Notes under the pieces: generated by a model | What the model was told of the DNA's origin: nothing | What the model saw: the letters and a program-made list of their open reading frames with translations, nothing else | The model's database searches: none | Position numbers and translations under genes: made by a program | Source of the DNA: a virus | Virus record (IMG/VR): IMGVR_UViG_3300030419_003599 | Coordinates: 1 to 64,000 of that record | Length of the DNA: 64,000 bases | Strand: one strand, 5' to 3' | Part shown: one piece after another, positions 1 to 31,961 of the stretch | Numbering within the stretch: the stretch's first letter is position 1 | Layout: every line of letters begins with the position of its first letter

Positions 1-3000
1 GGGTTTAGTTCAGAGTTCCAAGACATCCACACAGGCGAACCTATGGACCTCGCTTGGCGATTGCTCAAAGCACCACTTGACTTTGAATCTGTCCGTGATG
101 TAGGGGTTGTTGAAGAAGGGGGCTTTCCTTATCGGAGGTTTGAGGCTGATTTCATAGACCCTGAAACACAAGAACGGCTACCCGCCTTCGCTCGTCTGTC
201 CGATGATGGAGTGGGTGTAGGCCGTATTCAAGACCCTGACCCCGAATCTCTTCTAAGAAATAGGGCGTTCCACATGATACATCCTTATGGTGATAAAGGG
301 ATTTATCCATATTCTATCGGCACAGATAAAAACTTTAGAGGCCGAGGCTATCAAGAAGCCCTTTTGAATTTGATAATGCGTTTAGCCGAAGCAGAGGGAA
401 AAACATTCTACGAGCCACCTCAATCCTCCAAAACGGGTGATGGTAATATGTTCGCCCAAAGAATGCGTGAAAAATATGGTGATAAAGATGTTGAGGTAAT
501 AACGGGCGAACCAATGGACCTCTCTATGCGGTTGCTCAAAGGTAAGTTTGATTTAATACCAATGGAGGCTGCTAATGAATTATTGATGTTTCATGATGAC
601 CCTACAATCATAAGATGGCATAATGATAAATATGGATTAGGTTTGAGTGAAGAAGGTTTGTCCCAAGATGAAACGGATGAATTACTTAGTCATATAATAG
701 ATAGCGATACTGCATTTGAGCCTTCGGTCCCGGGTGGGATAAGTCATGCAGAAAATGTTGAACAATATGAAAAAGAGACAAGAAAACCCGCAAGACCTAT
801 GGGACTGAATATGCAATTAGGAGATGTTCCTGTCATTGACCCTACTAAGCCCGAAACTTGGAAAGACGGTCCCGGCACCACTTGGGTTGGGGGAAAACCT
901 ACAGTATCTCCGCAGATAACCCAACAACCATTTCCTTACGACTTTGATTACATTCACCAAGGCGAACCAATGGACCTCGTTTTCCGGTTGCTTAAAGCAC
1001 AACAAACACTCTATGCTTATGACCCTTCATTTATTGAAGAAGGCTTTCAACCCAATATTCAAAATGTAATTATTGCATCAAAGCCCGGTGCTAGAGATAT
1101 TAGTAACGAAGAGCAAAGTAAATTGCATGATGAGATGTTGAGGGATATTTCTGAATTAGATGGCTCTCATCGTATTAAGATAATAAGCGCTCGTGGGCGT
1201 AGTAATGAATGGGGTGACGAACATTCGTTTATGCTTACAAATGTCCCTGATGATATGATGCCCCATATTTTTTCATTGGCTGATAAATATGGTCAAGATT
1301 CTATATTACACTCACCAAAAGGAACAGCAGGAACACAATTTGTAGATAGTAGTGGTGAAGTAACTGGTGGTTTAGAAGAAGGTGGGTTTACTATAAAAAA
1401 GCCTGAAAACTATACTGAGTTTCCAACAGGGCAAAAATACGCATATGGTGATTATGTTACGGCGAGCGAACCAATGGACCTCGCTATGCGGTTGTTGAAA
1501 CTTGAATTAGCACCACCTATGACTCAAGGTGTTGAAGAGCAAGTACCAATGCAAGAAGATATACCTATGGTTGAAACTATGGATGAAGATGACTGTTGTG
1601 AAAAAGTTCGCGCATTTATTATTCAACAAAACCCGAATGTGCATGAATCTATTATTGAAAGGATTCGGAATATGCCGTGTGAAGAACTTCAATCTAATTT
1701 GAATTACAATGCAGTAGCAAACTTGGTTGGTTGCGGTGGCTTTAGCGAAGCGGACCAAATGAAATACGCAGGCGAGCCGATGGACATCGCTATGCGGTTG
1801 CTCAAAGAGGCTCGCCCTCATGCTCTCATACCTAATTTTGATTTACGACACATGCTTAATCCTAAATCTGATATACAAGAGCAATTGATAAGGCAACATG
1901 TTCCTCATGCTCTTTCCAATGCTGAATCAGCAACAGAAGTTTACAATCAACTTTTAGAAGAAGCCAAAATAAGAGAAGAAGAAACCGATTACTTCCCTTT
2001 ACCTCAAACTCAAATTGAAGATTACGGAGAGCAACACCCGCCTATTTTTCGTTACAACGCTACAAATGCGGTAACATATAGACCCGACTTTCAAGATATT
2101 CACACAGGCGAACCAATGGAAATCGCTATGCGGCTGCTCAAAGAAGAGGTTGATGACGAGGCTTTCAAACGGTCTGCTTACGGTTTAATGGATGAGGGAT
2201 GGGCTGACCATTTACCCGAAGATTTTGACCATGAAGGTTTTGATGCAGAAAACTACAATGAAATTATTGATAGAGAATATCCCACGGGTCAAAGTGGATA
2301 TAGCCCCGGAATAAAAGAATTACGAAGGTCGCTATACAACCGTTATGAAAGCCCCGAAGAAAATGAAAAGCGTTTTCGTGACTTAATGGATAACCCTACT
2401 CGTGAACCTATACTTGTCGTTAGAGATAAGAATGGAGAAGAGCATATTATTGCCGGCCATCATAGAATGGCGGCGAACATTGAGTCCAACAGACCACATC
2501 TTCCCGCTTTGATATTGGATATGGACAAGGATATTCAAACAGGCGAACCAATGGACATCGCTATGCGCTTCCTTAAGGCCCCATTTTACGAATACAGTAT
2601 GCCGACTTCCCAAATCACAGAAAACATTGTGCCTTTCGCCGAAGCAATGAATGAAGGGGAGGAGGATTGGCAATATATCCAGCCTAGAGCCCCAGATGCC
2701 CGAGCCCGAGAGCATTTGGCAGAACAAATGAAAGAGAGGAATATTGCTCAAACATCCCCTGCCTTGGGTCAGCCCATAATCCCCGGTGATGAGGACACTT
2801 TACATATCGGAAATCTCATTGCTGAATTGATGATGCGAGAAAATCCTGAAATCTTAGACCAATTGCCTCCCGGTGCTCGGGCCTCAATGCATTGGGGCAA
2901 TTTCCCAAAACCGAATATCATTTATCCATCAGAGCATTCCAAACAGCGAGTCCCATACCCCATGAAAGACTTGCATAGCGTCTTTTATCAGATACCGGGC

Positions 3001-3618
3001 GGAAAAGTATCACCCATTACAATACAGCCCACTCCCCCTTTCAGAGTGACCGAGCCCACTCAATTCATTCCTGCTGGTTCATTAGCAGAATGGCAGAAGG
3101 AGATGTTTGATGCTAGAAATCTGGAGCACGGACTGGAAACTCCAGCCCTGAGAGATTTACACTATCAGAGGCCCGAATTGGTGGAGGTGGCTGCTGCTGC
3201 ACCTGCTGCTCCGGCGGGAGCACTAGTCGCAACGGGCACAAGAGTACCTCCCGGATTGGAACACTTATTCAAAATCCCGCAGCAGGGACGCAGGGCAGGG
3301 CGGATAGTTTTTGCTGGCCCTCAGAGAGCCAGAAAATGGGCCAGCCCAGAGACAGGTTTTCCACACCAACTAAAGACGGTGAGTGAGTCTATGGCGAATA
3401 TGCAGCCAGAGCAGGCCAAGGCGTTCTACAGTGCACTATTACAGGCATGGATGGACAAAGGTATCTCCTTGGACGATTTGACAGGATACACTGGGAGAGG
3501 AGGACGGGACATGTCGGGGGTATCAGGATGGGAGGACGCTATTGCTGGACTCAAGAAGAAGAGTGAACCTATAGATATCGCTATGCAATTACTCAAAGTT
3601 GAACTTATGCGCAAATAA
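1..3618 (+). CDS. Modular polyprotein-like protein (5'-truncated by window edge): unrelated domains separated by 8 copies of a GEPMDLAMRLLK motif; includes GNAT-like and ParB/Srx-like modules
   Basis: Frame is open from base 1 (GFSSEFQDIHTGEPM...), so ATG43 is internal to a repeat. Module 1 has GNAT motif A (IGTDKNFRGRGYQEALL); module 6 has a ParB-like signature (EPILVV...IIAGHHRMAA). Confidence 0.85.
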   Translation, partial: GFSSEFQDIHTGEPMDLAWRLLKAPLDFESVRDVGVVEEGGFPYRRFEADFIDPETQERLPAFARLSDDGVGVGRIQDPDPESLLRNRAFHMIHPYGDKGIYPYSIGTDKNFRGRGYQEALLNLIMRLAEAEGKTFYEPPQSSKTGDGNMFAQRMREKYGDKDVEVITGEPMDLSMRLLKGKFDLIPMEAANELLMFHDDPTIIRWHNDKYGLGLSEEGLSQDETDELLSHIIDSDTAFEPSVPGGISHAENVEQYEKETRKPARPMGLNMQLGDVPVIDPTKPETWKDGPGTTWVGGKPTVSPQITQQPFPYDFDYIHQGEPMDLVFRLLKAQQTLYAYDPSFIEEGFQPNIQNVIIASKPGARDISNEEQSKLHDEMLRDISELDGSHRIKIISARGRSNEWGDEHSFMLTNVPDDMMPHIFSLADKYGQDSILHSPKGTAGTQFVDSSGEVTGGLEEGGFTIKKPENYTEFPTGQKYAYGDYVTASEPMDLAMRLLKLELAPPMTQGVEEQVPMQEDIPMVETMDEDDCCEKVRAFIIQQNPNVHESIIERIRNMPCEELQSNLNYNAVANLVGCGGFSEADQMKYAGEPMDIAMRLLKEARPHALIPNFDLRHMLNPKSDIQEQLIRQHVPHALSNAESATEVYNQLLEEAKIREEETDYFPLPQTQIEDYGEQHPPIFRYNATNAVTYRPDFQDIHTGEPMEIAMRLLKEEVDDEAFKRSAYGLMDEGWADHLPEDFDHEGFDAENYNEIIDREYPTGQSGYSPGIKELRRSLYNRYESPEENEKRFRDLMDNPTREPILVVRDKNGEEHIIAGHHRMAANIESNRPHLPALILDMDKDIQTGEPMDIAMRFLKAPFYEYSMPTSQITENIVPFAEAMNEGEEDWQYIQPRAPDARAREHLAEQMKERNIAQTSPALGQPIIPGDEDTLHIGNLIAELMMRENPEILDQLPPGARASMHWGNFPKPNIIYPSEHSKQRVPYPMKDLHSVFYQIPGGKVSPITIQPTPPFRVTEPTQFIPAGSLAEWQKEMFDARNLEHGLETPALRDLHYQRPELVEVAAAAPAAPAGALVATGTRVPPGLEHLFKIPQQGRRAGRIVFAGPQRARKWASPETGFPHQLKTVSESMANMQPEQAKAFYSALLQAWMDKGISLDDLTGYTGRGGRDMSGVSGWEDAIAGLKKKSEPIDIAMQLLKVELMRK
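31..3597 (+). repeat. Dispersed 39-bp in-frame repeat, consensus ~ACAGGCGAACCAATGGACMTCGCTATGCGGTTGCTCAAA; copies at 31, 502, 958, 1462, 1768, 2104, 2539, 3559
   Basis: Read directly. Spacings 471, 456, 504, 306, 336, 435 and 1020 nt are all multiples of 3; the last copy is the most diverged. Confidence 0.95.
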
Positions 3619-3735: not shown

Positions 3736-4707
3736 TTGTCAGTAAATGCTTACTTAGAAAATGGTGTATTTTGCTGCACTTACTGCATCGGGTGTAACTT
3801 CTACACTTATGTTAAGAACCCTATTCGCACTATCGTGCCTCCGAGCCTGCGAATCTATGAAGTAGGGCCTAGAGATGGGCTACAGAACTCAAAAGTGCGA
3901 TTTTCAACATCTGAAAAGGTTGAACTTATTAAAATGCTAGAAAATGCCGGTATTTCTCATATTGAAATGGGTTCATTCGTAAATCCGGCTTTAGTCCCGG
4001 CCATGTCGGATACTGCGGCTGTATTTAGAGAAGTAATAGGCCAAATAGATGCTAAAACTGAGTTAGGCGCTCTTATTCCTAATGAAAAGGGCTTCAAAAC
4101 CGCAATTATGACTGGTTTAACCCATTTTAACATCTTTTTTTCTCCATCGGAGGCTTTTAACGCCCGAAATCTCGGAAAAACACGAAATGAGGCGTTTTTG
4201 CACTTCAAAAATGTATTGAAAGATATCCCTAAAGAAAATATCCGAGTTTATGTGTCATGTGCGTTTGGTTGCCCATTTGAAGGTGAAATTGACTCAAATC
4301 TACTGAAAAAAGCGATTCAAGACGCAAATGAACTAGGTTCAACTGTTGTTCTTTGTGATACAGTCGGAAAAGCGAACCCAAAAGCAGTAGAACGGGTTTT
4401 ACATCTAGTTGATTCAGGCATTAAAGCCGAAATTGCTTTACATTTACATGAAGGGGTTAGAGGACGCTCCGGTTTATTTGAAAATATAGAGACAGCGGTA
4501 GGACTTGGGGTGCATCAATTTGATACTAGTATTGGCGGTTTAGGTGGTTGCCCATTTATGCCGGGTTCTGGAGTGAATGTGGCTACCGAAGACCTTGTTG
4601 AATGGGCAAATGAGCGTGGGTTAGACACAGGAGTTTGCGAAAATGCTCTAGCGGAGGTCGCAGCATTTGTGGCAAGCCGCATTAGTCCTATGGAGGTGGC
4701 GCAATGA
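3736..4707 (+). CDS. hmgL: Hydroxymethylglutaryl-CoA lyase (DRE-TIM metallolyase); likely true start GTG 3835
   Basis: IYEVGPRDGLQN N-terminal motif, FGCPFEG, LCDTVG, LHLH metal-binding histidines, GLGGCPF and NVATEDLV motifs. Confidence 0.92.
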   Translation: MSVNAYLENGVFCCTYCIGCNFYTYVKNPIRTIVPPSLRIYEVGPRDGLQNSKVRFSTSEKVELIKMLENAGISHIEMGSFVNPALVPAMSDTAAVFREVIGQIDAKTELGALIPNEKGFKTAIMTGLTHFNIFFSPSEAFNARNLGKTRNEAFLHFKNVLKDIPKENIRVYVSCAFGCPFEGEIDSNLLKKAIQDANELGSTVVLCDTVGKANPKAVERVLHLVDSGIKAEIALHLHEGVRGRSGLFENIETAVGLGVHQFDTSIGGLGGCPFMPGSGVNVATEDLVEWANERGLDTGVCENALAEVAAFVASRISPMEVAQ

Positions 4708-5667: not shown

Positions 5668-5806
5668 ACTTATCATCTGAAGGCCGCTCTTTGGGCTTTT
5701 GTCTAATTATTAGTTCATCTTCTATAGGATAGAGCATGCCAAATAAAGCCCCGAATAGAAATGCCCCTACCCAAAGTGCAGCATGGATGACGAGAGAGTA
5801 GTCCAT
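5657..5806 (-). CDS. Small membrane protein (49 aa; not in ORF track)
   Basis: TAATG coupling to the 5806..7251 gene; MDYSLVIHAALWVGAFLFGALFGMLYP hydrophobic segment. Confidence 0.55.
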   Translation of the reverse strand: MDYSLVIHAALWVGAFLFGALFGMLYPIEDELIIRQKPKERPSDDKFKA

Positions 5807-7251
5807 TAACGGACCCCTACTGATTTTAGGGTCCCTCTCTCTTTGAAATGTCTTGCTCGGTTGGCATGAGGGTCTTCTTCAACAAGTGTATGCTGACGAG
5901 TATGAGAAATATCAGGGCCGCCTCGTCCATATATACCGCGTTTGCGCCTCTCCCGATTGAGGTCTTCTCGGTATTTGACCCTTTTAGGATTTGATTCATA
6001 CTCAGTATCGTATTCTACTTTATGTCGTAAAGCCTCTGGACTTGTGGCGTGTTTGAGAAGCCTAAAAGCAAGGTCCATTGGTTCGCTAGCCAAATGGTAA
6101 TCTGGGTCATAGTCCCAATCAGTAGGTTCATTGATTTGCTCTGTCGGCTTTTCTGGTTTTGGTCGTACATCTTCCCAGTAAGGGAGGCTTGCCGAAGGGA
6201 CCGGCCTGTTGGGATTCGGATACGGGTTTGGCGTCAATCTGGTTTGTCCTCGTGCGTGCTTCCACGGTTCTTTCCCAAGTTGGGGGGGAGTTAATGGGGG
6301 TTGTTTTAATTCCTCAGATATATGTTCGCTCCATGGTACAGTAGTAATATCAGGGCGTAATGAGCCCCATTTTTCAGGGAGATGGAAATGACTTATTGTA
6401 TCAAATAATGTGTCACCCTCTTCCTCACCTAATTCCATATTATGTAAAGGGCCGAGTTCTGCAAAATGAGGGATTTTACCTAATTTACGGCCCGCTGCAC
6501 TACGCAGCCCTTTCGGTATTAACTTCATGGCTCTTGCTGCTAACCCCTGACCTTTGTCTGTGCGCGCTGAACTCATAAGTGCCCCTTCTCTACCAAGTAT
6601 TTGTTGTCCTAATAATGTCCCTAACCCTTGGCCTTCATAGCGAGGGTCAATTTGAATATAACTGACATGGGGACCCGCCATACTAGCGCGACCTATTGGT
6701 ATCATGCCTTTAGGGGCGTATGCTTCTTCATGAGGCAACAAACCTGTGTCTGGGTCGTAGAATCTTCCAGATGCATTTAGACTAGAAGGCGTATAATCCC
6801 CGCGATAAAAAGAGCCCCCCCATGATTCGCTTGGGCTTACTGCTCCTTTTGGAGCCCAAAGGGCATATTGTTTCTCCCCAAATAAATCGGACAATATACC
6901 CTTCATGTATTCATCTCTCACATCAACATCATCATCATCTTCCAATTCATCCCAATTATCGTGATACCAATCATATATTCGTTTTAATTTTGATGTAGAA
7001 GGGTCTCTTGTCGTCAAATCATTAGAGAGGTTGTAGTAATCGGCGAGGGCATTCCATTGGGGTCGCTGTGTAATTAAAGATGTAAGATGGAAATCGCTCG
7101 GTTTTAAGCCTAAGAGGCGCTTTTTATTATCTTGCGGAGAGCCAGTATCTGGTTTTTCTACTGCATCGCCTAGCGGTTTGGGCATGGCTCCCCAATCACT
7201 AAGAGTGGTCTGCCGTGCCTTCAAAAAAGACCACGATTTATCTATGCCCAT
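5806..7251 (-). CDS. Modular protein: leader + PIP-box-like motif + GNAT-like domain, then repeat motif and a basic HNH-like C-terminal module
   Basis: MGIDKSWSFLK|ARQTTLSDW; VSYIQIDPRYEGQGLGTLL (GNAT motif A); ASEPMDLAFRLLK at 6052-6090; C-terminal DISHT...HANRARH. Confidence 0.75.
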   Translation of the reverse strand: MGIDKSWSFLKARQTTLSDWGAMPKPLGDAVEKPDTGSPQDNKKRLLGLKPSDFHLTSLITQRPQWNALADYYNLSNDLTTRDPSTSKLKRIYDWYHDNWDELEDDDDVDVRDEYMKGILSDLFGEKQYALWAPKGAVSPSESWGGSFYRGDYTPSSLNASGRFYDPDTGLLPHEEAYAPKGMIPIGRASMAGPHVSYIQIDPRYEGQGLGTLLGQQILGREGALMSSARTDKGQGLAARAMKLIPKGLRSAAGRKLGKIPHFAELGPLHNMELGEEEGDTLFDTISHFHLPEKWGSLRPDITTVPWSEHISEELKQPPLTPPQLGKEPWKHARGQTRLTPNPYPNPNRPVPSASLPYWEDVRPKPEKPTEQINEPTDWDYDPDYHLASEPMDLAFRLLKHATSPEALRHKVEYDTEYESNPKRVKYREDLNRERRKRGIYGRGGPDISHTRQHTLVEEDPHANRARHFKERGTLKSVGVR

Positions 7252-9347: not shown

Positions 9348-10064
9348 ATGTCAGCACTTGCTGGTTCAGCCCTTGTTGGGGGGATGGTATGGGCAAGAGA
9401 ATTGTGGAATTATTGGAAACCTCGTAAAGTCGGAGTTTATGGTCCACAATTAGTAGGGAAGACTACTCTTGATAGATTCATGACCACTCCGGGCGAAATG
9501 GAACCAATAGCGGAAGAAGAACGCACAACCCATTTCCGCATGATGGGTCGCTATGTTTTACCTCGCCCTACGCGTAAGCGCGTGCGTTGGAAGGGAGAGA
9601 AACGAGTTGTATATAGTTCTGATATAGGAGGGGATGAAAGATTCTGGAGCCTGTGGATTGATGATATGGTCCATAGGCAAGTAGAAGCGGTTGTATTCAT
9701 GTTTGATGATAGAGCAGCGAAAGGTGGAGATGAAGCAATCCAAGCAGTTGGCGGTTTCAAATATCTTGTAGACGCTCTCATCCATCGCCAATACCGCTAT
9801 CGTTCTCTTAAAACATGGTGGAAAGGAAAAAAGTATGCGCCTAAAATGGTTATGTTAGTTGCCAATAAAGCCGATAAATGGTGGGATGACGATGCCTCAG
9901 TATTATGGCAACAAGATAGAATTGGGGAGCACAAGGTGTTTGACCCATTTCGCCCTGACCTTATTCGTTTACAGAAGGCTGGCATCCCCACAAGGCGTGG
10001 TTTTATGGCCACTCGTATAGGCTGGCAAGTAGAAAATACTATGATAGACCTATTGAGTGGGTGA
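9348..10064 (+). CDS. Small Ras/Arf-superfamily-like GTPase
   Basis: G1 GPQLVGKTT, candidate G2 RTT, G3 DIGG followed by ERFWSLW, core strand AVVFMFD, G4 NKAD, G5-like MAT. Confidence 0.85.
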   Translation: MSALAGSALVGGMVWARELWNYWKPRKVGVYGPQLVGKTTLDRFMTTPGEMEPIAEEERTTHFRMMGRYVLPRPTRKRVRWKGEKRVVYSSDIGGDERFWSLWIDDMVHRQVEAVVFMFDDRAAKGGDEAIQAVGGFKYLVDALIHRQYRYRSLKTWWKGKKYAPKMVMLVANKADKWWDDDASVLWQQDRIGEHKVFDPFRPDLIRLQKAGIPTRRGFMATRIGWQVENTMIDLLSG

Positions 10065-10425
10065 TACCATGAGCCCGCTTGACGCCGCTTGGACAATTTT
10101 GAAATCTCGCCCTGTTTCATCTTCTGGAAAGCAGTATTCTCCTCAAGAATTGCAGCAATTGCGGGCTTTCGTTAATGCTAATATAGAAAGTCCTGACCCT
10201 AATTTACAGGCTCAAGCGCAGCAAATACTTGAAGAACTCACTACAGCCATGTCTTTTGCGGGCGGTCGTACCTCATTCAACACTCCTTCAGAGCCCATTG
10301 TCCCCGGCGCTGGGCCAGTTGTCCGTGGGGCCGGAGGCCCTGCTGCATCAGTAGGCGTTCGCCCGCCTTTACCTCCAGAACCTTCAGAAGAGGATGAGGA
10401 CGATGATAAGGCATTGCCCTCTTGA
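10057..10425 (+). CDS. Hypothetical protein with leader variant MSPLDAAWTILK|S
   Basis: GGGTGA RBS before ATG 10069; Pro/acidic tail. Confidence 0.7.
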   Translation: MGDTMSPLDAAWTILKSRPVSSSGKQYSPQELQQLRAFVNANIESPDPNLQAQAQQILEELTTAMSFAGGRTSFNTPSEPIVPGAGPVVRGAGGPAASVGVRPPLPPEPSEEDEDDDKALPS

Positions 10426-13558: not shown

Positions 13559-13974
13559 AAGGCGTCCATGTCCCAATGAATATTTTATTGGCTTATGGCA
13601 CTCCATTCACCCATTTGTTACATGGGTCTGGCGCATTAGAAGATGATGAAATTGGTCCATTTTATGATGGAGTCCATGAATGTGTAAGCCGTTGGCTCCA
13701 TTATCTCAATCAACAGGTAGAGAATCCTCAAATGCAATCTTTCTATACACCAGTTGAGAATCTTCGCTCAGATTTGCTAGACCTTATTCATGAAGATGGT
13801 TGGGATACTTTTGAAATTAGAGATAGAGCGCGCCATGCTCTTATTGAGTTTGAACATATTTGTTCGGATATGGCTCGCTCTTTTACTCATCCACCTAGAG
13901 TGAAAGAGTTTTATCACAATCTTGCCAGCAGAAGTCGTGCTACGCTTGAGCGATTAGTGGAAGGTGAAGTATAA
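13555..13974 (+). CDS. Hypothetical protein
   Basis: Coupled ORF with GAGGTG RBS. Confidence 0.7.
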   Translation: MKGVHVPMNILLAYGTPFTHLLHGSGALEDDEIGPFYDGVHECVSRWLHYLNQQVENPQMQSFYTPVENLRSDLLDLIHEDGWDTFEIRDRARHALIEFEHICSDMARSFTHPPRVKEFYHNLASRSRATLERLVEGEV

Positions 13975-15830
13975 TGCCTAGCGGGACAGGAGGAATGGGG
14001 CGCGGGTCTGATACCCGAATGTATAGTCCTCGTTCAGAATCTACCCGAATGTTTGGTTATGAAGAGGATGATATTGGTCATGCTCATGGTTATGGTGACC
14101 CCGAACTTGCGGCGGAAAGCAGAGAAAAGAAGAAGCGAGAAAAAGAAGAAACCAAACAACGGCAAAAAATACATCATATCAAAATTAGACATAAAGATAT
14201 TCTTGATGAATTACCCCCTAGTATGGGTGAAGTTTCACAAGAAGGTGATAATGAACTTGCACCTAAAGATGAAGAGCAAGGCGAATTATCTGCTTTGACA
14301 GGTACTTCCGGTTCTCGCGGGGCCATGTTGGACCAAGCCATTGGTGCCAAAACTGGTACAGGTTCGGCGCTTGGTGGTACTCCGCCATTACTCGGTCCAA
14401 TGGGTGTGTATCATTCTGAGCCGATGGAGAACGCTTGGTCTGAGTTGTTGAAAAACAAGAAAGAACCTTTTACTCATTATGGCACCGATGGGCGTCCATT
14501 CAGACCAATAGCCACCCTTTTACAAGGTGATGTAGAGCCGGGTCAAGCGGGCTATATAGCAAACCGAGGTGATGAGACAGGGATACGGATACCCCATATT
14601 CCAGCAAAAGAACGCGCTGATTTTGATGACGAAGTTGAAGCGCACAGACAAGAAATGTATAGACAGGGGTTAGTAGATGACGATGAGGAGTTTGCTCTTT
14701 TGAACTCTTTAATAGACCAATTTTATGGTGCAGATAAGTCTCAATACCCAATAGAAGATGATTATGAAGTGCAGGTAGAACCTGTACTTGAAGATAGAAG
14801 TGAAACTGCTCAAATTGGCTCACCGATGGATTATACTCCCGATGAAATCTATGAGATGTTTAGAAACGGCGAGCCAATGGAGGTGGCTTGGTCTGAGTTG
14901 ATGAAATCTAAAAAAGATAAGGGCGAAGCGCCAATGGCTGCTGGCGAAATTGGTTCAGCGGGAACTACCACTCAACGCCGAAAAGAACATGCCAAAAAAT
15001 GGGCTCAACCTAAGTTCAAGGTCGCTCCCGGAGGGCGCAGACCTACTACAGCGACTTCCCGCCGAGCAAAAGCCCGTAGCCGAACTTTAGCACCTCGTCA
15101 TCGTGTTCATAATATCAAAGGCGGGCTAATGCAAAGTCCTTTGGCTGTGCATATGTCTCACCTTGGTGTCCAAACTAAACAACCTCTACGGCAATTCCCT
15201 GAAAAGTATAGGCAATATTACGGTCAGCAACTAAGGCGCCGTTTAACTGGTGATATTGCACAAACTGTAGCACCTCACGGGTTATTTGGTGAGCGCACTC
15301 AGAATCCCGGCCCTACTGGAGGAGGTCGTCTTCCGGGTCAATTGCCGGGACAAGCCGCTGCTGCTGGTATGCCATCTTTGCGTAGATTGGCTAGACCAAG
15401 AGTGCCCCGTTTGCGAAAACCTACTGGCTTTAGCCCTATGACTCCGCCTACTATCCCAACTGCCCCACCTCTCCCACAACCAGCCCAAGTAGGGTTGCCT
15501 TCTTCTAATATCCAAATGTCAGGAAAAGTAGGAGTAGGGTCCCCTCTCAAAAAGAATATTGATATTTTACGCCCCGGGACTTTTGCTTTCATGCATAGTC
15601 GGGAGATTGCTAAACTTTTGAGAGAATTGAAAGAGAAGTTAGAGCGGCATGGAAGGATGCGTAAAGGCAAGGGCACTGCTGATACTAGTGGTGCAGGAGA
15701 CGATAAACCCGATGCTCCAGCAAATGGGCCAAAGCAAACCAGCAAACTTGAAGGAGGAACCGAATCTAGTCCTGATGACGATGCAAGAAATTGGGGTATG
15801 GACCCTTCTGCTATTATAGGGAGTCATTGA
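13974..15830 (+). CDS. Low-complexity protein with alternating acidic/basic segments and two internal motif copies
   Basis: HSEPMENAWSELLK at 14412-14453 and NGEPMEVAWSELMK at 14865-14906. Confidence 0.75.
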   Translation: MPSGTGGMGRGSDTRMYSPRSESTRMFGYEEDDIGHAHGYGDPELAAESREKKKREKEETKQRQKIHHIKIRHKDILDELPPSMGEVSQEGDNELAPKDEEQGELSALTGTSGSRGAMLDQAIGAKTGTGSALGGTPPLLGPMGVYHSEPMENAWSELLKNKKEPFTHYGTDGRPFRPIATLLQGDVEPGQAGYIANRGDETGIRIPHIPAKERADFDDEVEAHRQEMYRQGLVDDDEEFALLNSLIDQFYGADKSQYPIEDDYEVQVEPVLEDRSETAQIGSPMDYTPDEIYEMFRNGEPMEVAWSELMKSKKDKGEAPMAAGEIGSAGTTTQRRKEHAKKWAQPKFKVAPGGRRPTTATSRRAKARSRTLAPRHRVHNIKGGLMQSPLAVHMSHLGVQTKQPLRQFPEKYRQYYGQQLRRRLTGDIAQTVAPHGLFGERTQNPGPTGGGRLPGQLPGQAAAAGMPSLRRLARPRVPRLRKPTGFSPMTPPTIPTAPPLPQPAQVGLPSSNIQMSGKVGVGSPLKKNIDILRPGTFAFMHSREIAKLLRELKEKLERHGRMRKGKGTADTSGAGDDKPDAPANGPKQTSKLEGGTESSPDDDARNWGMDPSAIIGSH

Positions 15831-15831
15831 A

Positions 15832-17931
15832 ATGAGCCAAATCATTGTCCTTAACCCTACAGAGACTTTACTCAAGTCATTTTTCGCTAATGTAGTTGAG
15901 CCTTCAATTATTCTCAAAGGCGATGGTGTCCTTTACATGGGACCCGAGGGTAACAAAATGATGGGTTTCCCTCCCCAACATATGTTCAATATGGACCCAA
16001 ATCAACCAGACCACCCTATGTGGTCATGGAATCCTCATACTGGAGAACCTACCGAAGGTGGTATGCATCCGATTGATGGAGTAGTAGCCCATTTGCAGCA
16101 GTATCTTGATAAAATGGGTATTAGGGCAGATGCTCGTTCCATAGTTCAAGATTCAATTGACGCCTTTAATCGTAAGCATATGTCTGATAATCATCATTTA
16201 CCGGCATTTGATTCCCCTGAATGGCGTAAGTTAGTTATCGGCCCTCATCCTACTAATGTGCCGGGTCATGAAATAGCAACTCGCGGTCATGACGGTAAGT
16301 TATTTACTCATTATGGTAATCGTGGCGGCTCAATTGGTTTATTCCCTGAGAGCGGAGCAGTCCCATTTTTCAGCGAACTTAATGATATTCTCACAGATAT
16401 GGGTTTGCATCAAGCAGAGGGAGAATTGGAGTTCGCTAAATATCCCAATATATCAGCCCAGCATTTGTCCCCTAATGTTTATCGTACTAAAGCGAATGAA
16501 TTAGCGGCGCACGGTTTAGTGCCGGGGCATATTCTTGAACAACACGCCCCAGAAGGAATGATGTTTGATGGAGCGCATGGGGCGCGACATACTTGGGAAG
16601 TGATGCATCATTTACCAGCGGCTATGTTCATGGGTACAGGTTATGCGCCTAGAGCCAATAGTGCAACAGTGCGTGAAGCAGAAGGTAATATCGCCGCCGC
16701 TCTTCAAAATATAGACCCTAAACAAATACCAAATCATCCAATTACTCTCCATGATGGGACTAAAACTACCTTCGCCGAGGCTATATCTAATCCTGCTACT
16801 CGCAGTACTTTAATTCAAGATATGGCGCGCAGTCCTGCTTTACAATTCATGTTTGCTGGAGCGGGAAGCCCTGCCACACGAACTAAGACCCGCACAATTA
16901 TGGGGCCTCTTCTTGATGTAGAGGGTTTTGATGTTCACCGTGGTCATACTGATACTGGTACTAGAAAAAGAGGACGCAGCCCTCATTCTTATGCTGTAAA
17001 TGTCGCTGCCGCTGCCGCCGCTCATGGTCCATGGGAAGCAGACCCTACTCGTTCAGCAATGGCTGATAATTCGCATGGTTTACCTGAAGGTGTAGACCAC
17101 AATGAAATCGGCAGGCGTAGAGAAATTATTGAAGGCATGGGAGACATGATGGCTAGAGCCCATGGGCATACTGAACGATGGACTCCAGATTGGGATAATC
17201 TCCCCACTGATATGCCCGCATCTCGCGCAATTGGTAATTTAGGTCAAGTAATGCATCAAGAAGTGCCTGAACATTTCATTAATCGTTTCTATACAGACAT
17301 GAATGCCGCTCCTACAAGAGATATACCTATCCCGGGCATGGGTGCTGGTCCAACTGCTCAAAGAGAGCAAACCCCGCCTGAACCTTCTATACCTGAAGTT
17401 AGAACTCAACCAGCAGCACCTGCCGCTCCTGCCGCTCAACCAATAGCCCCCCGAATTGAGCCCCGGGGACTTACTCCTGAATTACAAGCCGCTCGTAGGC
17501 AGATAGGGGCGGCCCAAGGAGTAGAAGGGGTGAGGCAAACGGCTAGAGAAATGGGAATGCCACCGCTTCCTGAAAACCCGGCGCATGTGAGCCGCTTCCA
17601 GCATTCTTTCGGTGACCCACACCAAACTCTTCTTGACCAATGGATGCGCTCTAATGATTCTGTAGAAATGTTAGACCGCATTGAAAAGGCAATGGAAGAA
17701 CTACAACTCAAAGATGCCCAAAGAGATGTAGCAGTTTTGAAACACCTTCCTAATCGCCAAAATCTCAATATCAATATTGAAGGCGATGTTGCTTTAATGG
17801 CCAATAAATTGGGGCTCACTAAGCACGATATACGAAGTCTTGCCATTTCCAAAGGAGATTGGCACCGTGTGGCTGAAGTATTTGATGTCCCGGCGCCTGT
17901 TGTAGGGGCAGTAAAGGTGGTGTTCTCATGA
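15832..17931 (+). CDS. His/Pro-rich hypothetical protein, putative virion-internal protein
   Basis: N-terminal TLLK|S and IILK|G sites; PIP-like QTLLDQW near the C-terminus. Confidence 0.7.
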   Translation: MSQIIVLNPTETLLKSFFANVVEPSIILKGDGVLYMGPEGNKMMGFPPQHMFNMDPNQPDHPMWSWNPHTGEPTEGGMHPIDGVVAHLQQYLDKMGIRADARSIVQDSIDAFNRKHMSDNHHLPAFDSPEWRKLVIGPHPTNVPGHEIATRGHDGKLFTHYGNRGGSIGLFPESGAVPFFSELNDILTDMGLHQAEGELEFAKYPNISAQHLSPNVYRTKANELAAHGLVPGHILEQHAPEGMMFDGAHGARHTWEVMHHLPAAMFMGTGYAPRANSATVREAEGNIAAALQNIDPKQIPNHPITLHDGTKTTFAEAISNPATRSTLIQDMARSPALQFMFAGAGSPATRTKTRTIMGPLLDVEGFDVHRGHTDTGTRKRGRSPHSYAVNVAAAAAAHGPWEADPTRSAMADNSHGLPEGVDHNEIGRRREIIEGMGDMMARAHGHTERWTPDWDNLPTDMPASRAIGNLGQVMHQEVPEHFINRFYTDMNAAPTRDIPIPGMGAGPTAQREQTPPEPSIPEVRTQPAAPAAPAAQPIAPRIEPRGLTPELQAARRQIGAAQGVEGVRQTAREMGMPPLPENPAHVSRFQHSFGDPHQTLLDQWMRSNDSVEMLDRIEKAMEELQLKDAQRDVAVLKHLPNRQNLNINIEGDVALMANKLGLTKHDIRSLAISKGDWHRVAEVFDVPAPVVGAVKVVFS

Positions 17932-18815
17932 AGCCAATAGATTCTGCTTGGGCGATTCTTAAGAATCCGGCTTTAGAAACAATGACACCTGCCGCTGTAG
18001 ATGCCGCAGGACCCGGTTTTTTCCTTGGACCACAAGGAATACAAGGGCAGAGTGGTCCTTTTATGTTCAATATGGGGGGTAGAGGGGCTAATCGCCCTAG
18101 TACAGCCAGACTCCTTCATGGTTTAGCCACAGGTCAAGCACCAAGAGGGACTAAGCGCGCACTTGCAGGAAGAGCGGCTGGGACTGGTTTAGGTCTGGTC
18201 AATGCTTTATTGGCTGCAGAAAGAGCACAGCGTGGTGGAGATATTGAAAGTGCTCTTGGTGCCGCTTATGCTGGCTATCAAGTACCTAAACAAAGTATTA
18301 CTGGTGCCGCAGAAGGGGAATGGAGCCATAAACCAATGTTGGATGCCCATGGGCGACCTATGCGAAAACCCAGATTAGATGAAGAAGGTAATCCAATATT
18401 AGACAAAACAGGGCGACCTATAATGGACCCAATGTTAGAGGAAGAACAAACACCCGGTGGCGCAATCGGAGGTCAGATGGAGGCCGCTCAACTTGGTCGT
18501 TCTTTTTACGATAATATAGTACAAGAAGAAGACCCTATTAATTTCCCTAGCGCTGCATCCGAATATGGCAACCTTCCTCCCCCTAAAGAAACATCTCTAC
18601 AAGCAGGGGTCCCAAATACAGCACCTACACTTGGTCAACTAAGAGCCTCAGCGACAGACACAATGCCACAAGGAGACCCTAATAGAATAACAAGTTGGAC
18701 AGGTACAGCAGTAGACCCAGCAGCGGACGCAACGCAGAATGTGGGGTTAGATGTATTCACAAACAGTGAACCGATGGACTTGGCTTTCCGTATGTTAAAG
18801 GGGGCTATGAGATGA
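17928..18815 (+). CDS. Hypothetical protein bracketed by motif copies
   Basis: MKPIDSAWAILK at the start; NSEPMDLAFRMLK at 18762-18800. Confidence 0.75.
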   Translation: MKPIDSAWAILKNPALETMTPAAVDAAGPGFFLGPQGIQGQSGPFMFNMGGRGANRPSTARLLHGLATGQAPRGTKRALAGRAAGTGLGLVNALLAAERAQRGGDIESALGAAYAGYQVPKQSITGAAEGEWSHKPMLDAHGRPMRKPRLDEEGNPILDKTGRPIMDPMLEEEQTPGGAIGGQMEAAQLGRSFYDNIVQEEDPINFPSAASEYGNLPPPKETSLQAGVPNTAPTLGQLRASATDTMPQGDPNRITSWTGTAVDPAADATQNVGLDVFTNSEPMDLAFRMLKGAMR

Positions 18816-20279: not shown

Positions 20280-20600
20280 ATGACTGATGCCTTAACTTGC
20301 CATTATTGCGGCCAGCGATTTAACCACCCAATGCAGCGTTTGATTCACGAAGAGCGAATGCATGAGGGCGGAGGAGGCTCCGAGAAAGACGCTATGTTCC
20401 AGACAGGTGAGCCTATGAATCTCGCTTGGCGTTTATTGAAAGAAAAAGAAGATGCCCCTAATTATCGTTGCCCGGCTGATGACCCGAAACAAAGTTGCGG
20501 GACTTGTAAGCATTGGGTCAAAAAAAGTGATGAAATAGGCACTTGTTCCCTCTTTAATTTCCAGTGCAATGCCAAATGCACTTGCGATGCTTGGAGTTGA
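20280..20600 (+). CDS. C2H2 Zn finger + repeat motif + HiPIP-like Cys domain
   Basis: CHYC...HEERMH; TGEPMNLAWRLLK at 20403-20441; NYR...CGTCKHW...GTCSLF...CDAW. Confidence 0.7.
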   Translation: MTDALTCHYCGQRFNHPMQRLIHEERMHEGGGGSEKDAMFQTGEPMNLAWRLLKEKEDAPNYRCPADDPKQSCGTCKHWVKKSDEIGTCSLFNFQCNAKCTCDAWS

Positions 20601-30578: not shown

Positions 30579-31961
30579 GTGTGCAGAAGTTTGGTGAATT
30601 GTGTGCTGGCTGAACCTAGACTCCGAACACTGCCTCGGGAGGGCATCACTCTCCTCAAAGGAAGTGACCTCGTTGTCGCAGGCTACGCAAGCGTGGAGTT
30701 GGTAGATAAACAGGGTGACCTGATAACCAAGGAGGCATTAAAGGACGCATTCCGTAAGTTCATGGAGAACCCCGGCTATCAAAATGTCCAACTCGCACAC
30801 TCAAATATCCAAGTAGGAGAAGTAGTCAAGGACCACACAGACAGTAATGGGAGGGTATGGAAGAGCGAAGTTGATGATGTCGGGATGTTCGTAGTAGTAA
30901 AACTAAGAAACGACATTGAAAAAGCACGAGAAGTCGCAGCAGAAATCCGAAAAGGCAACCTACGAGGATTTAGCATTGGAGGACAAGCATTCAAACGCAT
31001 GAATAAAAGCGACAAAGAACACGGCTCATACACTGAAATCTCCAAACTTGAACTACACGAAGTAACAATATGTGAAAAAGGAATTAATGCGGAAGCGACA
31101 TTTAGAATATTAAAAGAGGACACCAGCATGACTATAGAAGACAATGGACAAACAGACACCTTGAACCAATTGAGTAGTGTTTTGAACCGACTAGAGGGGA
31201 GAATTGACTCAATGGAGAAAGGAGAAAATCCTTTTGCAGACGCAAAGGATGAGAAAGTGAACGACAAAGAAGAGAGTGACGATGATGACAACGGCGACGA
31301 TGAGGACACCAAAAAGTCCGAATACAGCGATGTCATCTCAAGTGAGTACTTGAGTTATCTTGAAGACACCGTGAAAAGCGCTGGCATAGACACAGCGGCA
31401 GCACGAGCGCACTTTGACGAAATGAACAAGGCTCAAATGGGAGGCGACCCTAATATTGATGGCGCTTCTTACTTTGGCGGCCAAGCCCCAAAGAGAGAGC
31501 AAGTAGAAGGTAAGCCTGAAGCACCAAAGGCCGAGTATGGCGCTGGTGGCAAGGGCAAGAAATCCAGTATTGATAAGGCTGATTTCCTACACCCTAACAA
31601 CATTAACTCTGCTGACATTGAAGCAGCATATCAAGTCTATAAGGCCGCTGCAGAAGAACAGCAGTTCAAGGCTAACCTTGGCGAAGTTTTCGCAGAGAGA
31701 CTAGGCAAAGAGCAAGAAGTAGCAAAGGCAGAAGCCGAGCGCAGTGCTTTTGATGCACGCGCTCCACTTGGAGAAATCCAGAAGGCTATTGAAAACCTAA
31801 ACGAGCGTATTGACAATCTATCTGGTGGAGGAAGCGGAACTGATATCCAGAAATCCGTAACCCCATCTAGCGCAGTTCCAATCCCAACAACTGAGGAACT
31901 GGCTACTATGGAGTGGGGCGAAGTACACCGTCTCGCAGGTAGCGTATGGCAGGGAGAGTGA
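30579..31961 (+). CDS. Prohead (maturation) protease fused to acidic scaffold region (likely start GTG 30603)
   Basis: VVAGYASVELVDKQGD, LAHS (His), GFSIGG (Ser), LHEVTICEKGIN fit the HK97/XkdF-type protease; immediately precedes the MCP. Confidence 0.9.
   Translation: MCRSLVNCVLAEPRLRTLPREGITLLKGSDLVVAGYASVELVDKQGDLITKEALKDAFRKFMENPGYQNVQLAHSNIQVGEVVKDHTDSNGRVWKSEVDDVGMFVVVKLRNDIEKAREVAAEIRKGNLRGFSIGGQAFKRMNKSDKEHGSYTEISKLELHEVTICEKGINAEATFRILKEDTSMTIEDNGQTDTLNQLSSVLNRLEGRIDSMEKGENPFADAKDEKVNDKEESDDDDNGDDEDTKKSEYSDVISSEYLSYLEDTVKSAGIDTAAARAHFDEMNKAQMGGDPNIDGASYFGGQAPKREQVEGKPEAPKAEYGAGGKGKKSSIDKADFLHPNNINSADIEAAYQVYKAAAEEQQFKANLGEVFAERLGKEQEVAKAEAERSAFDARAPLGEIQKAIENLNERIDNLSGGGSGTDIQKSVTPSSAVPIPTTEELATMEWGEVHRLAGSVWQGE

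What the first reader, a model, noticed from the sequence alone, without database searches (positions are those of the whole stretch)
1..3618. Beads-on-a-string polyprotein whose linker is also a DNA repeat: possible shuffling cassette array
Seen: seven modules of about 90-330 aa sit between 39-bp repeats. Copies 1-7 are conserved at many synonymous positions (GGCGAACCAATGGACCTCG...), and copies 1 and 6 share extra upstream sequence (FQDIHT). The ORF continues beyond the left edge, so the array may be longer. Inference: the repeats could act as recombination anchors that let cargo domains be gained, lost or reordered in frame, giving a variable array with no dedicated recombinase visible in this window.
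Basis: partly seen in the sequence, partly recalled or inferred. Interest (0 to 1): 0.85.

Follow-up and report, generated by a model that had tools for sequence, protein, structure and literature searches.

The report
Swappable cargo cassettes joined by tags
A marine archaeal virus (magrovirus type) strings unrelated small protein modules together with one 12-residue tag; the tag's 36-bp coding sequence is kept unusually uniform, and related viruses and co-occurring strains differ by whole modules exchanged at these tags, so the tag acts as an in-frame joint for cassette exchange as well as a protein signal.

Summary
ORF 1-3618 has seven unrelated modules (90-328 aa) separated by eight copies of a 12-codon tag, [GS]EPMD[LI]AMRLLK.

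The window is the start of a 108.6-kb magrovirus-like contig. Its far end carries more of the same array.

The tag is a family-wide peptide. It sits N-terminally on stand-alone genes and internally in fused ones: 527 proteins match among 1.84 billion cluster representatives.

The internal version is also conserved as DNA. Codon identity at same-residue sites is 0.59-0.66, against 0.35-0.38 expected from codon usage and 0.48-0.56 in orthologous capsid genes. It does not fall as the viruses diverge. N-terminal tags lack this codon uniformity.

Relatives share single modules at 87-91% nucleotide identity. Homology stops at or inside the tags, and one crossover lies after codon 5.

In the run that holds most of the stretch, module depths run from 6x to 100x. 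Another run joins a different left neighbour to module 3 through a hybrid tag.

No site-specific recombinase was found in the genome.

The seven-module order in the contig is probably a path through a strain mixture.

What the peptide does (address or cut signal for the head) remains inferred. This scan noted the same tag before, on this genome and on others; no paper searched contains the tag's sequence strings.

The parts
1..3618 (+). Cargo polyprotein ORF, open at its 5' end at the contig start: seven modules and eight tags
34..69 (+). tag 1, GEPMDLAWRLLK
70..504 (+). Module m1 (145 aa), GNAT-like (weak, Pfam E 0.071). 90.7% nt identical to L042, where it follows a different leader. Depth 6x in X1.
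505..540 (+). tag 2, GEPMDLSMRLLK
541..960 (+). Module m2 (140 aa), no family match. 90% nt identical to L040 (homology 508-996, that is tag to tag). Depth 8-14x in X1.
961..996 (+). tag 3, GEPMDLVFRLLK. Compared with L040, the crossover lies after codon 5. Run X2 has a hybrid version that joins module B to m3.
997..1464 (+). Module m3 (156 aa), SAM-lyase/DUF3293-like (weak here, E 0.037). The 38%-identical homologue in L012 reaches DUF3293 at E 2e-5. Depth 100x in X1.
1465..1500 (+). tag 4, SEPMDLAMRLLK. Window 1465-1541 is identical to the last 77 nt of the contig, where it follows module B.
1501..1770 (+). Module m4 (90 aa), Cys-rich, no family match. A 42%-identical version directly follows m2 in L040.
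1771..1806 (+). tag 5, GEPMDIAMRLLK. It is the only internal tag that an X1 contig spans.
1807..2106 (+). Module m5 (100 aa), no family match and no relative found
2107..2142 (+). tag 6, GEPMEIAMRLLK. In L041 the same module starts a separate gene with the N-terminal form MKPFDIAWRLLK.
2143..2541 (+). Module m6 (133 aa), ParB/Srx-like (phrog_4715 E 5e-4; PDB 4umk E 0.014). 87% nt identical to L041. Depth 49x in X1, about half of its neighbours.
2542..2577 (+). tag 7, GEPMDIAMRFLK. In runs X3 and X5, likeness to m7 begins at base 2543, with unlike sequence upstream.
2578..3561 (+). Module m7 (328 aa), no family match. Present at 95-99% identity in X3 and X5 behind other neighbours.
3562..3597 (+). 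tag 8, SEPIDIAMQLLK, 6 codons before the stop (a C-terminal tag)
3736..4707 (+). HMG-CoA-lyase-like gene, a flank next to the arrays of relatives that is present but moderately conserved (43-59% aa identity)
5806..7251 (-). Tagged gene on the other strand: N-terminal tag (7219-7251), GNAT-like module, internal tag (6052-6087), then a basic 81-aa C-terminal domain (5809-6051, phrog_6437)
10057..10425 (+). Small gene with the N-terminal tag MSPLDAAWTILK (10069-10104)
13974..15830 (+). Conserved 618-aa protein with two variant tags (14415-14453 and 14868-14906). Only the 135-aa piece between the tags is replaced in relative G031; the flanks are 70-75% identical.
17928..18815 (+). Gene with an N-terminal tag (17928-17963) and a C-terminal tag (18765-18800, 4 codons before the stop). 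No relative matches this gene; in G031 and G013 the 1.1-1.4 kb between orf699 and TerL, where it would lie, gave no match (its content there was not examined).
20280..20600 (+). 106-aa gene with an internal tag GEPMNLAWRLLK (20406-20441)
32060..32068 (+). The only LLK in the capsid protein, inside the family-conserved SGSELLKAD at residues 28-36 (L33, K34 and D36 invariant, the others at least 90% conserved). A possible maturation cut site with the same ending as the tag.
30651..31115 (+). Prohead-protease domain, bracketed by ITLLK (30651-30659) and FRILK (31107-31115). Possible self-cut sites.

Best explanation
The ORF is a cargo polyprotein of a magrovirus-type tailed virus of marine archaea. 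It is a string of unrelated small modules, some enzyme-like (GNAT, SAM-lyase-like, ParB-like), each bounded by one 12-residue tag.

The tag works at two levels.

**As a peptide** it is a family-wide signal that can sit at the N-terminus of stand-alone genes, between fused modules or at a C-terminus. Most likely it is an address and/or cut mark used during head assembly. This step is inferred.

**As DNA**, the 36-bp internal version is kept nearly uniform at synonymous sites. It serves as an in-frame crossover point for ordinary homologous recombination between co-infecting relatives and between copies within a genome. Whole modules are therefore gained, lost, replaced, fused or split without breaking the reading frame.

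Shown here: the variation, the breakpoints in the tags and the excess nucleotide identity. Inferred: that recombination at the tags is the cause, and that it relies on general recombination functions rather than a dedicated enzyme.
For: 1. **Tag census.** 22 or so tags lie in about 10 genes, all between 107.0 kb and 20.6 kb across the contig ends and next to terminase and portal. None lies elsewhere in the genome.

2. **Family-wide spread.**
- 39 viral contigs hold the exact degenerate pattern.
- All six near-complete ones searched have a capsid protein 75-82% identical to ours; over all matching records the range is 73-90%.
- A tag profile finds 527 proteins at E<=1e-3 among 1.84e9 representatives, with up to 8 tags each.
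- No match in 185,579 prokaryote genomes.

3. **DNA-level conservation.**
- Codon identity at same-residue sites is 0.66 within this genome against 0.36 expected.
- For tags with unrelated flanks it is 0.588 between contigs and 0.664 within contigs, against 0.35-0.38 expected.
- Orthologous capsid genes give 0.515.
- Tag identity stays near 0.60 while capsid-gene codon identity falls from 0.56 to 0.48 with divergence. Tags exceed the capsid gene in 84% of contig pairs.
- The consensus uses rare codons: CGG in 34 of 58 Arg positions against a background of 0.07, and CTC in 39 of 77 against 0.10.
- Residue variants are single-base neighbours: GGC/AGC, CGG/CAG, ATC/CTC.
- 47 N-terminal tags keep the peptide but scatter their codons: GAT 14 / GAC 12, against GAC 74 / GAT 10 in internal tags.

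4. **Breakpoints.**
- Homology with relatives covers 67-539, 508-996 and 2111-2588 in the window, and 107606-108093 in the contig, at 87-91% nt identity. Nothing aligns beyond these ranges.
- G000 and L040 are identical through the end of m2 and the first five tag codons, then switch to different downstream modules.
- m6 is fused here but heads a separate gene in L041.
- In the conserved 618-aa protein, only the piece between its two tags is replaced.
- Backbone genes stay collinear.

5. **Population data.**
- In X1, contigs break at five of six internal tags, with depths of 6x to 100x.
- X2 (all pieces at 99% or more, none with a differing letter) lacks m1 and m2 and reads module B + hybrid tag + m3.
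- X3 and X5 carry m7 behind other sequence, starting at base 2543.

6. **No site-specific recombinase** in the genome.

7. **Combinatorics.** 459 modules from 150 tagged proteins fall into 197 families. Recurrent families have many different neighbours.
Against: - No recombination event was seen directly. Only assembled contigs of public runs were available, so single-molecule deletions, circles or rates are unknown.
- Unequal depths could reflect distinct co-occurring lineages rather than recent exchange within one lineage.
- Uniform codons in internal tags could also mean that this tag subtype is young and spread recently, or that some RNA- or translation-level constraint acts on it. Cause and consequence of recombination cannot be separated.
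- 36 bp is short for homologous recombination.
- No recombinase of any kind was recognised in the virus.
- The peptide's role is unproven. The only hints are LLK at the conserved start region of the capsid protein and on both sides of the protease domain.
Confidence: 0.62

Rival explanations
1. The repeat is only a peptide signal. The DNA likeness is a passive by-product of strong purifying selection and shared descent. Modules differ between viruses through ordinary illegitimate recombination or gene turnover that happens to be tolerated only at domain borders.
For: The peptide is clearly functional by itself. N-terminal tags keep it with scattered codons, and 527 proteins carry it. Selection would remove out-of-frame or domain-breaking junctions, which enriches visible breakpoints at linkers.
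Against: - Codon identity is well above the codon-usage expectation and above orthologous capsid genes, and it does not depend on divergence.
- One crossover lies inside the tag, with identical sequence up to codon 5.
- Run X2 has a hybrid tag.
- Survivor bias would place junctions anywhere in the loose flanks, not inside the 36 bp.
Confidence: 0.15
2. The uniform codons of internal tags serve an RNA- or translation-level purpose, such as a pause between domains, internal initiation at the Met codon, or an RNA processing site. Recombination is incidental.
For: The consensus uses rare codons (CGG, CTC) at a domain border and contains an in-frame ATG.
Against: - No stable or conserved RNA fold: z-scores of -0.7 to +0.6.
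- No viral tRNA genes that would decode the rare codons.
- N-terminal tags with the same core peptide lack the codon pattern.
- This reading does not explain the hybrid tags or the tag-bounded homology.
Confidence: 0.08
3. This is a dedicated, enzyme-driven cassette system. A virus nuclease or recombinase recognises the 36-bp tag DNA and actively stimulates exchange, comparable to an integron or to homing. Candidates are the conserved 465-aa HNH-containing ORF at 20569-21966 and the basic C-terminal domain that ends many tagged proteins.
For: - The nucleotide consensus is sharply bounded and independent of virus divergence.
- An HNH-domain ORF sits inside the tagged region and is conserved in relatives at 47-71%.
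- A basic 77-aa domain follows a tag in 64 of 150 tagged proteins.
Against: - No tyrosine or serine recombinase was found.
- Nothing links the HNH ORF to the tag.
- The C-terminal domain has no detectable fold relative.
- Breakpoints are not at one fixed position of the tag.
Confidence: 0.08
4. The apparent variation is an assembly artefact. Short-read assemblers mis-join at a repeated 36-mer, so neither the array nor its variants exist as drawn.
For: - The contig starts and ends inside the array, and its end duplicates 77 nt of the interior.
- The contig of relative G031 also starts in its array.
- X1 contigs break at the tags.
Against: - Tags differ from each other at several bases, and the junction contigs extend 130-490 nt into unique modules on at least one side (table 8).
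- Independent samples and assemblies give the same kind of tag-bounded differences.
- The depth differences of 6x to 100x lie in unique module sequence, so they are real.
Confidence: 0.05

Closest known systems
PeSL-mediated modular shuffling in T4-type phages (Arbiol et al. 2010, PMC2839356; Comeau et al. 2014, PMC4122927)
   Same: Short conserved DNA motifs flank variable, mostly unknown genes. Close relatives differ by insertion, deletion or replacement with crossovers inside the motifs. No dedicated recombinase is involved. The authors compare their system to integron cassettes.
   Different: PeSLs are intergenic promoter-plus-terminator cassettes. Here the joint is coding, in frame, and also a conserved peptide, so exchange builds or splits fusion proteins. 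The host is an archaeon. Mini-circles were shown for PeSLs and were not testable here.
Phage T4 internal proteins with the capsid targeting sequence, in hypervariable IP loci (my own knowledge; the IP loci and Repoila 1994 are mentioned in PMC2839356)
   Same: One short conserved N-terminal peptide heads many unrelated, fast-turning-over small proteins encoded near the head genes. PeSL-like conserved sequences were seen at those variable loci.
   Different: - There is no sequence likeness to the T4 tag (compared from my memory of its sequence, not tested).
- Here the tag also occurs internally and C-terminally and links up to 8 modules in one chain.
- Packaging and cleavage are unproven here.
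Polyvalent proteins of phages and conjugative elements (Iyer et al. 2017, PMC5512222)
   Same: One polypeptide carries many unrelated, conflict-type domains (ParB-like, acetyltransferase-like and others) and is encoded beside virion genes. Processing into pieces is proposed there too.
   Different: That paper describes no repeated linker ('linker' and 'conserved motif' occur 0 times). Its hallmark zincin peptidase, ArdC-N and DarA domains gave no Pfam match in this polyprotein (E<=1) or in the ten arrays of relatives scanned (E<=0.01). Most modules here have no family at all.
Glycine-rich motifs that delimit hypervariable segments in T4-superfamily gp38 adhesins (Trojet et al. 2011, PMC3157838; content from my own knowledge, only the abstract was seen)
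   Same: Conserved in-frame motifs inside one gene flank variable segments and are proposed to allow in-frame swapping by recombination.
   Different: Those segments are variants of one binding surface in one protein. They are not unrelated whole domains, and the motif is not shared among many genes.
Integron gene cassettes (attC sites plus integrase; textbook knowledge)
   Same: Arrays of unrelated cassettes are bounded by a recurring short site, and content varies between close relatives.
   Different: No integrase was found. The site is translated. Cassettes are protein modules rather than whole genes with their own starts.

Membership tests
Magrovirus-type tailed archaeal virus (Philosof et al. 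2017, PMC5434244) | About 100-kb genome with an HK97-type head module, family B DNA polymerase and a chaperonin; SNF2 helicase in group A | tested here: met
   108,650-bp contig. Terminase, portal, protease and capsid protein. Cpn60/TCP-1 at E 2e-133, PolB at E 1e-43, SNF2 at E 2e-37. Paper text read. No tree was built and the host was not tested.
Polyvalent proteins (Iyer et al. 2017) | Two to 15 unrelated effector-type domains in one polypeptide of a virus or plasmid | tested here: met
   Seven modules without mutual similarity. Weak GNAT, SAM-lyase and ParB-like matches. Relatives add NUDIX, HD and GNAT.
Polyvalent proteins (Iyer et al. 2017) | Hallmark accessory domains (zincin-like peptidase, ArdC-N, DarA, MuF) | tested here: not met
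   No such Pfam match in this polyprotein at E<=1 or in ten arrays of relatives at E<=0.01.
Polyvalent proteins / T4-type internal proteins | Delivered inside the virion and released into the host | not testable with these tools
   Needs virion proteomics. Only the gene position next to terminase and portal speaks for it.
T4-type capsid targeting sequence | One short conserved N-terminal peptide on many unrelated proteins | tested here: met
   47 N-terminal tags of the form M-x-[PA]-F-[DE]-x-A-W-x-[LI]-L-K in this genome and in related loci.
T4-type capsid targeting sequence | Removal by the prohead protease at a defined site | tested here: inconclusive
   LLK also ends the conserved SGSELLKAD at capsid-protein residues 28-36 (L33, K34 and D36 invariant, the rest at least 90%). 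LLK and ILK also bracket the protease domain, against chance expectations of 0.06 and 0.16 LLK per protein. No termini were measured.
PeSL-type modular shuffling | A conserved short DNA motif flanks variable units, and relatives differ by indels or replacements with crossovers in the motif | tested here: met
   population data
PeSL-type modular shuffling | The motif is an intergenic promoter plus stem-loop terminator | tested here: not met
   The motif lies in frame inside ORFs and has no significant fold.
PeSL-type modular shuffling | Excised mini-circles | not testable with these tools
   Only assembled contigs of runs were served.
Integron | Tyrosine-recombinase integrase next to the array | tested here: not met
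   PF00589 and PF00239 gave no match in the whole genome, and the controls were positive.

The most novel reading that the evidence does not exclude
The internal tag is a dual-use element selected at both levels: a translated, in-frame equivalent of a cassette attachment site. A whole family of abundant ocean viruses would then run an integrase-free 'protein-domain integron', possibly helped by a tag-specific nuclease (the conserved HNH ORF or the basic C-terminal domain), which continuously re-deals a pool of hundreds of payload modules among co-infecting viruses.
Probability: 0.12. Interest if true: 0.9.

Novelty: new variant of a known kind. Interest (0 to 1): 0.68.

Why it matters
Magroviruses are among the most abundant viruses of the surface ocean, and almost nothing is known about how they deal with their uncultured archaeal hosts. 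This locus looks like their fast-evolving payload. It draws on hundreds of mostly unknown modules: 197 families among only 150 proteins sampled. The modules are re-dealt at a shared joint that keeps the reading frame.

If the joint really works both as a protein signal and as a crossover site, it is a natural design for in-frame domain shuffling without a recombinase. It also gives a simple handle, one 12-residue pattern, for cataloguing candidate host-takeover and anti-defence proteins of archaeal viruses.

It also explains why assemblies of these viruses break at this locus.

Tried and rejected
- **Complex prediction, capsid protein + 35-residue tag piece:** no verdict (score 0.00, below the mark). 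Not evidence either way. Two earlier attempts failed because the machine was busy.
- **RNA folds of the tag consensus and four copies:** z-scores of -0.7 to +0.6, so no structure.
- **tRNA scan of the whole genome:** none. The idea that viral tRNAs decode the tag's rare codons is dropped.
- **blastn of the ORF against 50,697 phage records:** no match.
- **Exact tag pattern in 185,579 prokaryote genomes:** none.
- **Literature string search for the motif:** 0 papers. The polyvalent-protein paper and two magrovirus papers contain no description of it.
- **The 81-aa basic C-terminal domain:** no Pfam or PDB sequence match. The AlphaFold model has mean pLDDT 67 and a helix-helix-hairpin-helix layout. 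Foldseek gave nothing at E<=0.001, and VIA-align gave a best Z of 3.3. My idea of a His-Me-finger-like fold remains unsupported.
- **ESM Atlas for m7:** no usable hit.
- **Joints in table 5:** they have sides of only 20-39 nt inside tags, so I did not interpret them as deletions.
- **Does a tag travel with its upstream or its downstream module?:** tags are too alike (random pairs 0.77) to tell.
- **Rad51/RadA and Hjc:** no match. This does not show that the virus lacks recombination proteins of unknown type.
- **Likeness of the tag to encapsulin cargo-loading peptides:** considered by eye and rejected, because the hydrophobic register differs.

Full report
**What is there.** The window is the first 64 kb of a single 108,650-bp viral contig. 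It carries terminase (18812-20278), portal (21966-23744), prohead protease (30579-31961), an HK97-type capsid protein (31967-33103) and tail genes on the + strand. On the far side, on the - strand, it carries a Cpn60/TCP-1 chaperonin, a family B DNA polymerase and an SNF2 helicase. This matches the magroviruses described for Marine Group II archaea (PMC5434244).

ORF 1-3618 runs off the contig start. Its translation shows seven segments with no mutual similarity (145, 140, 156, 90, 100, 133 and 328 aa). They are separated by eight copies of [GS]EPMD[LI]AMRLLK. The eighth copy lies six codons before the stop.

Family matches for the modules are weak:
- GNAT for m1 and S-adenosylmethionine lyase for m3.
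- ParB-like for m6.
- Homologous or neighbouring modules in relatives add NUDIX (E 4e-22), GNAT, DUF3293/SAM lyase and an HD domain.

**The tag is a family-wide peptide.** In this genome it occurs about 22 times in about 10 genes. All of them lie between 107.0 kb and 20.6 kb across the contig ends, next to the packaging genes.

It comes in two forms:
- An N-terminal form, M-x-[PA]-F-[DE]-x-A-W-x-[LI]-L-K, heads stand-alone genes.
- An internal or C-terminal form is a sharply bounded 12-residue block (information profile).

Its spread:
- A degenerate DNA pattern found it in 39 IMG/VR contigs.
- Every near-complete one has a capsid protein 75-82% identical to ours, and all matching records fall at 73-90%, so this is one virus family.
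- A profile of 96 tags finds 527 proteins at E<=1e-3 among 1.84 billion cluster representatives, with up to eight tags per protein.
- The pattern is absent from 185,579 prokaryote genomes.
- The motif strings occur in no paper of the library.

**The internal tag is also conserved as DNA.**
- Within this genome, codon identity at same-residue sites is 0.66 against 0.36 expected.
- Across 37 other contigs the consensus is RGC GAA CCA ATG GAC ATC GCT ATG CGG TTG CTC AAA. It prefers codons that are rare in the same ORFs. Residue variants are single-base neighbours of the consensus.
- I counted only pairs of tags whose 150-nt flanks share no 11-mers. For these, identity is 0.588 between contigs and 0.664 within contigs, against 0.35-0.38 expected.
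- As a calibration, the orthologous capsid genes of the same viruses give 0.515.
- Capsid-gene identity falls from 0.56 to 0.48 as the viruses diverge, while tag identity stays near 0.60.
- The 47 N-terminal tags keep the peptide but not the codons. The uniformity is therefore not needed for the peptide.
- No RNA fold and no viral tRNA explains it.

**Modules move, and the breakpoints are in the tags.** Syntenic relatives were compared over the region upstream of terminase: G031 (= L040/L065), G013 and G029, plus L036 and L041. They keep ten backbone genes collinear at about 28-88% aa identity, mostly above 45%. The tagged arrays share only single modules:
- m1 with L042 (90.7% nt).
- m2 with L040 (90%).
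- m6 with L041 (87%).
- Module A of the contig-end ORF with L036 (88%).

In each case homology stops at or within a tag.

At base level, this genome and L040 are identical through the end of m2 and the first five tag codons. They then continue into different modules. m6 is fused here but opens a separate gene in L041 with the N-terminal form of the tag. So the same joints fuse and split genes.

In the conserved 618-aa protein (13974-15830), only the 135 residues between its two tags are replaced in G031. The tagged gene at 17928-18815 has no match in any relative; in G031 and G013 the 1.1-1.4 kb between orf699 and terminase, where it would lie, gave no match, and I did not examine what lies there.

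Among the 150 best tagged proteins, 459 modules fall into 197 families, and recurrent families have many different neighbours. One basic 77-aa C-terminal domain follows a tag in 64 proteins, behind 43 different modules.

**Population evidence.** All runs are marine or seawater metagenomes, served as assembled contigs only.

- **X1** holds 95% of the sampled words and may be the source sample. Its contigs break at five of the six internal tags. Depths are 6x (m1), 8-14x (m2), 100x (m3), 93x (m4-m5), 49x (m6) and 93x (m7 onward).
- **X2** is from another study, and its pieces carry no differing letter. It covers m3 and m5-m7 but nothing at 1-868. One of its contigs reads the last 30 nt of module B of the contig-end ORF (exact match at 108545-108574). 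It continues through a tag whose first 19 nt are those of the B-side tag and whose remainder is tag 3, and then runs into m3.
- **The contig itself** instead ends with B + tag 4 + the first 41 nt of m4, and internally has m2 + tag 3 + m3. These are three different junction arrangements around m3 and m4.
- **X3 and X5** carry m7 at 95-99% identity, with unlike sequence directly upstream of base 2543, the second base of tag 7.

I conclude that the seven-module order in the contig is probably a path through a strain mixture. I also conclude that module content truly varies in nature at these joints.

**Mechanism.** No tyrosine or serine recombinase, Rad51/RadA or Hjc was found in the complete contig. 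The simplest reading is general homologous recombination between co-infecting relatives, and between copies within a genome, at the 36-bp joints. Repeated exchange or conversion then keeps the joints uniform. This is inference; no event was observed.

The peptide's own function is also inferred. The tag's ending recurs at three places:
- as the only LLK of the capsid protein, inside the conserved SGSELLKAD at residues 28-36;
- as ITLLK just before the protease domain;
- as FRILK just after it.

I could check it only at this level.

**Comparison with known systems.** The closest working analogue is PeSL-mediated modular shuffling in T4-type phages (PMC2839356). The closest protein-level analogues are T4 internal proteins with their capsid targeting sequence and the polyvalent proteins of Iyer et al. 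(PMC5512222).

It differs from all three in that one element is both a translated linker or signal and the crossover site. The units exchanged are therefore protein domains kept in frame.

The scan had already noted the tag on this genome and on other magroviruses. New here are the DNA-level conservation with controls, the base-level breakpoints and the read-depth evidence.

Noticed in passing
window 5809-6051 (-): A basic 77-81-aa C-terminal domain (phrog_6437; conserved KxEYDxxYESxPERVKYRxELNRERRKRG...DMSHT...HxNRAR). It ends 64 of the 150 best tagged proteins, always directly after a tag and behind 43 different modules. No Pfam, PDB or fold match. It could be a nucleic-acid-binding anchor.
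   Followed up: partly
window 13974-15830: The conserved 618-aa protein has a long Arg/Pro/Gly-rich basic tail and carries a swappable 135-aa cassette between two variant tags (EPMENAWSELLK type). It looks like an internal, DNA-associated virion protein that carries cargo.
   Followed up: partly
G000 about 91,850-93,270 (= L044 7845-9270), - strand: A second small-gene array with two recurring DNA blocks: six copies of a 24-nt gene-start block and five copies of CGCAACCGCTTGACTTCTGCGAG. I confirmed only the repeats.
   Followed up: partly
window 44413-60993: A single 5526-aa ORF downstream of the tape-measure-like gene. It carries no tags and was not analysed.
   Followed up: no
window 24969-30560: A 1863-aa ORF between portal and protease, with weak matches to an ATP-dependent DNA-ligase / nucleotidyl-transferase fold at residues 1379-1527.
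   Followed up: no
window 3736-4707: An HMG-CoA-lyase-like gene (Pfam HMGL-like, E 2.5e-36) lies beside the arrays of several relatives at 43-59% aa identity (L036, L040, L041). This is an unexpected metabolic gene at this position.
   Followed up: no
window 20569-21966: A 465-aa ORF with an HNH domain between terminase and portal, conserved in relatives at 47-71% identity.
   Followed up: no
L065 (G031 contig start) and G000 contig ends: Two independent assemblies of related viruses both break inside the tagged array. This fits strain heterogeneity at the locus. IMG/VR calls these contigs 'linear' although CheckV rates them 94-100% complete.
   Followed up: partly
window 3418-3555: In run X3, one contig replaces 138 nt near the end of m7 with 135 unlike letters while matching on both sides. 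This is a small variable patch that is not bounded by tags (table 5).
   Followed up: no
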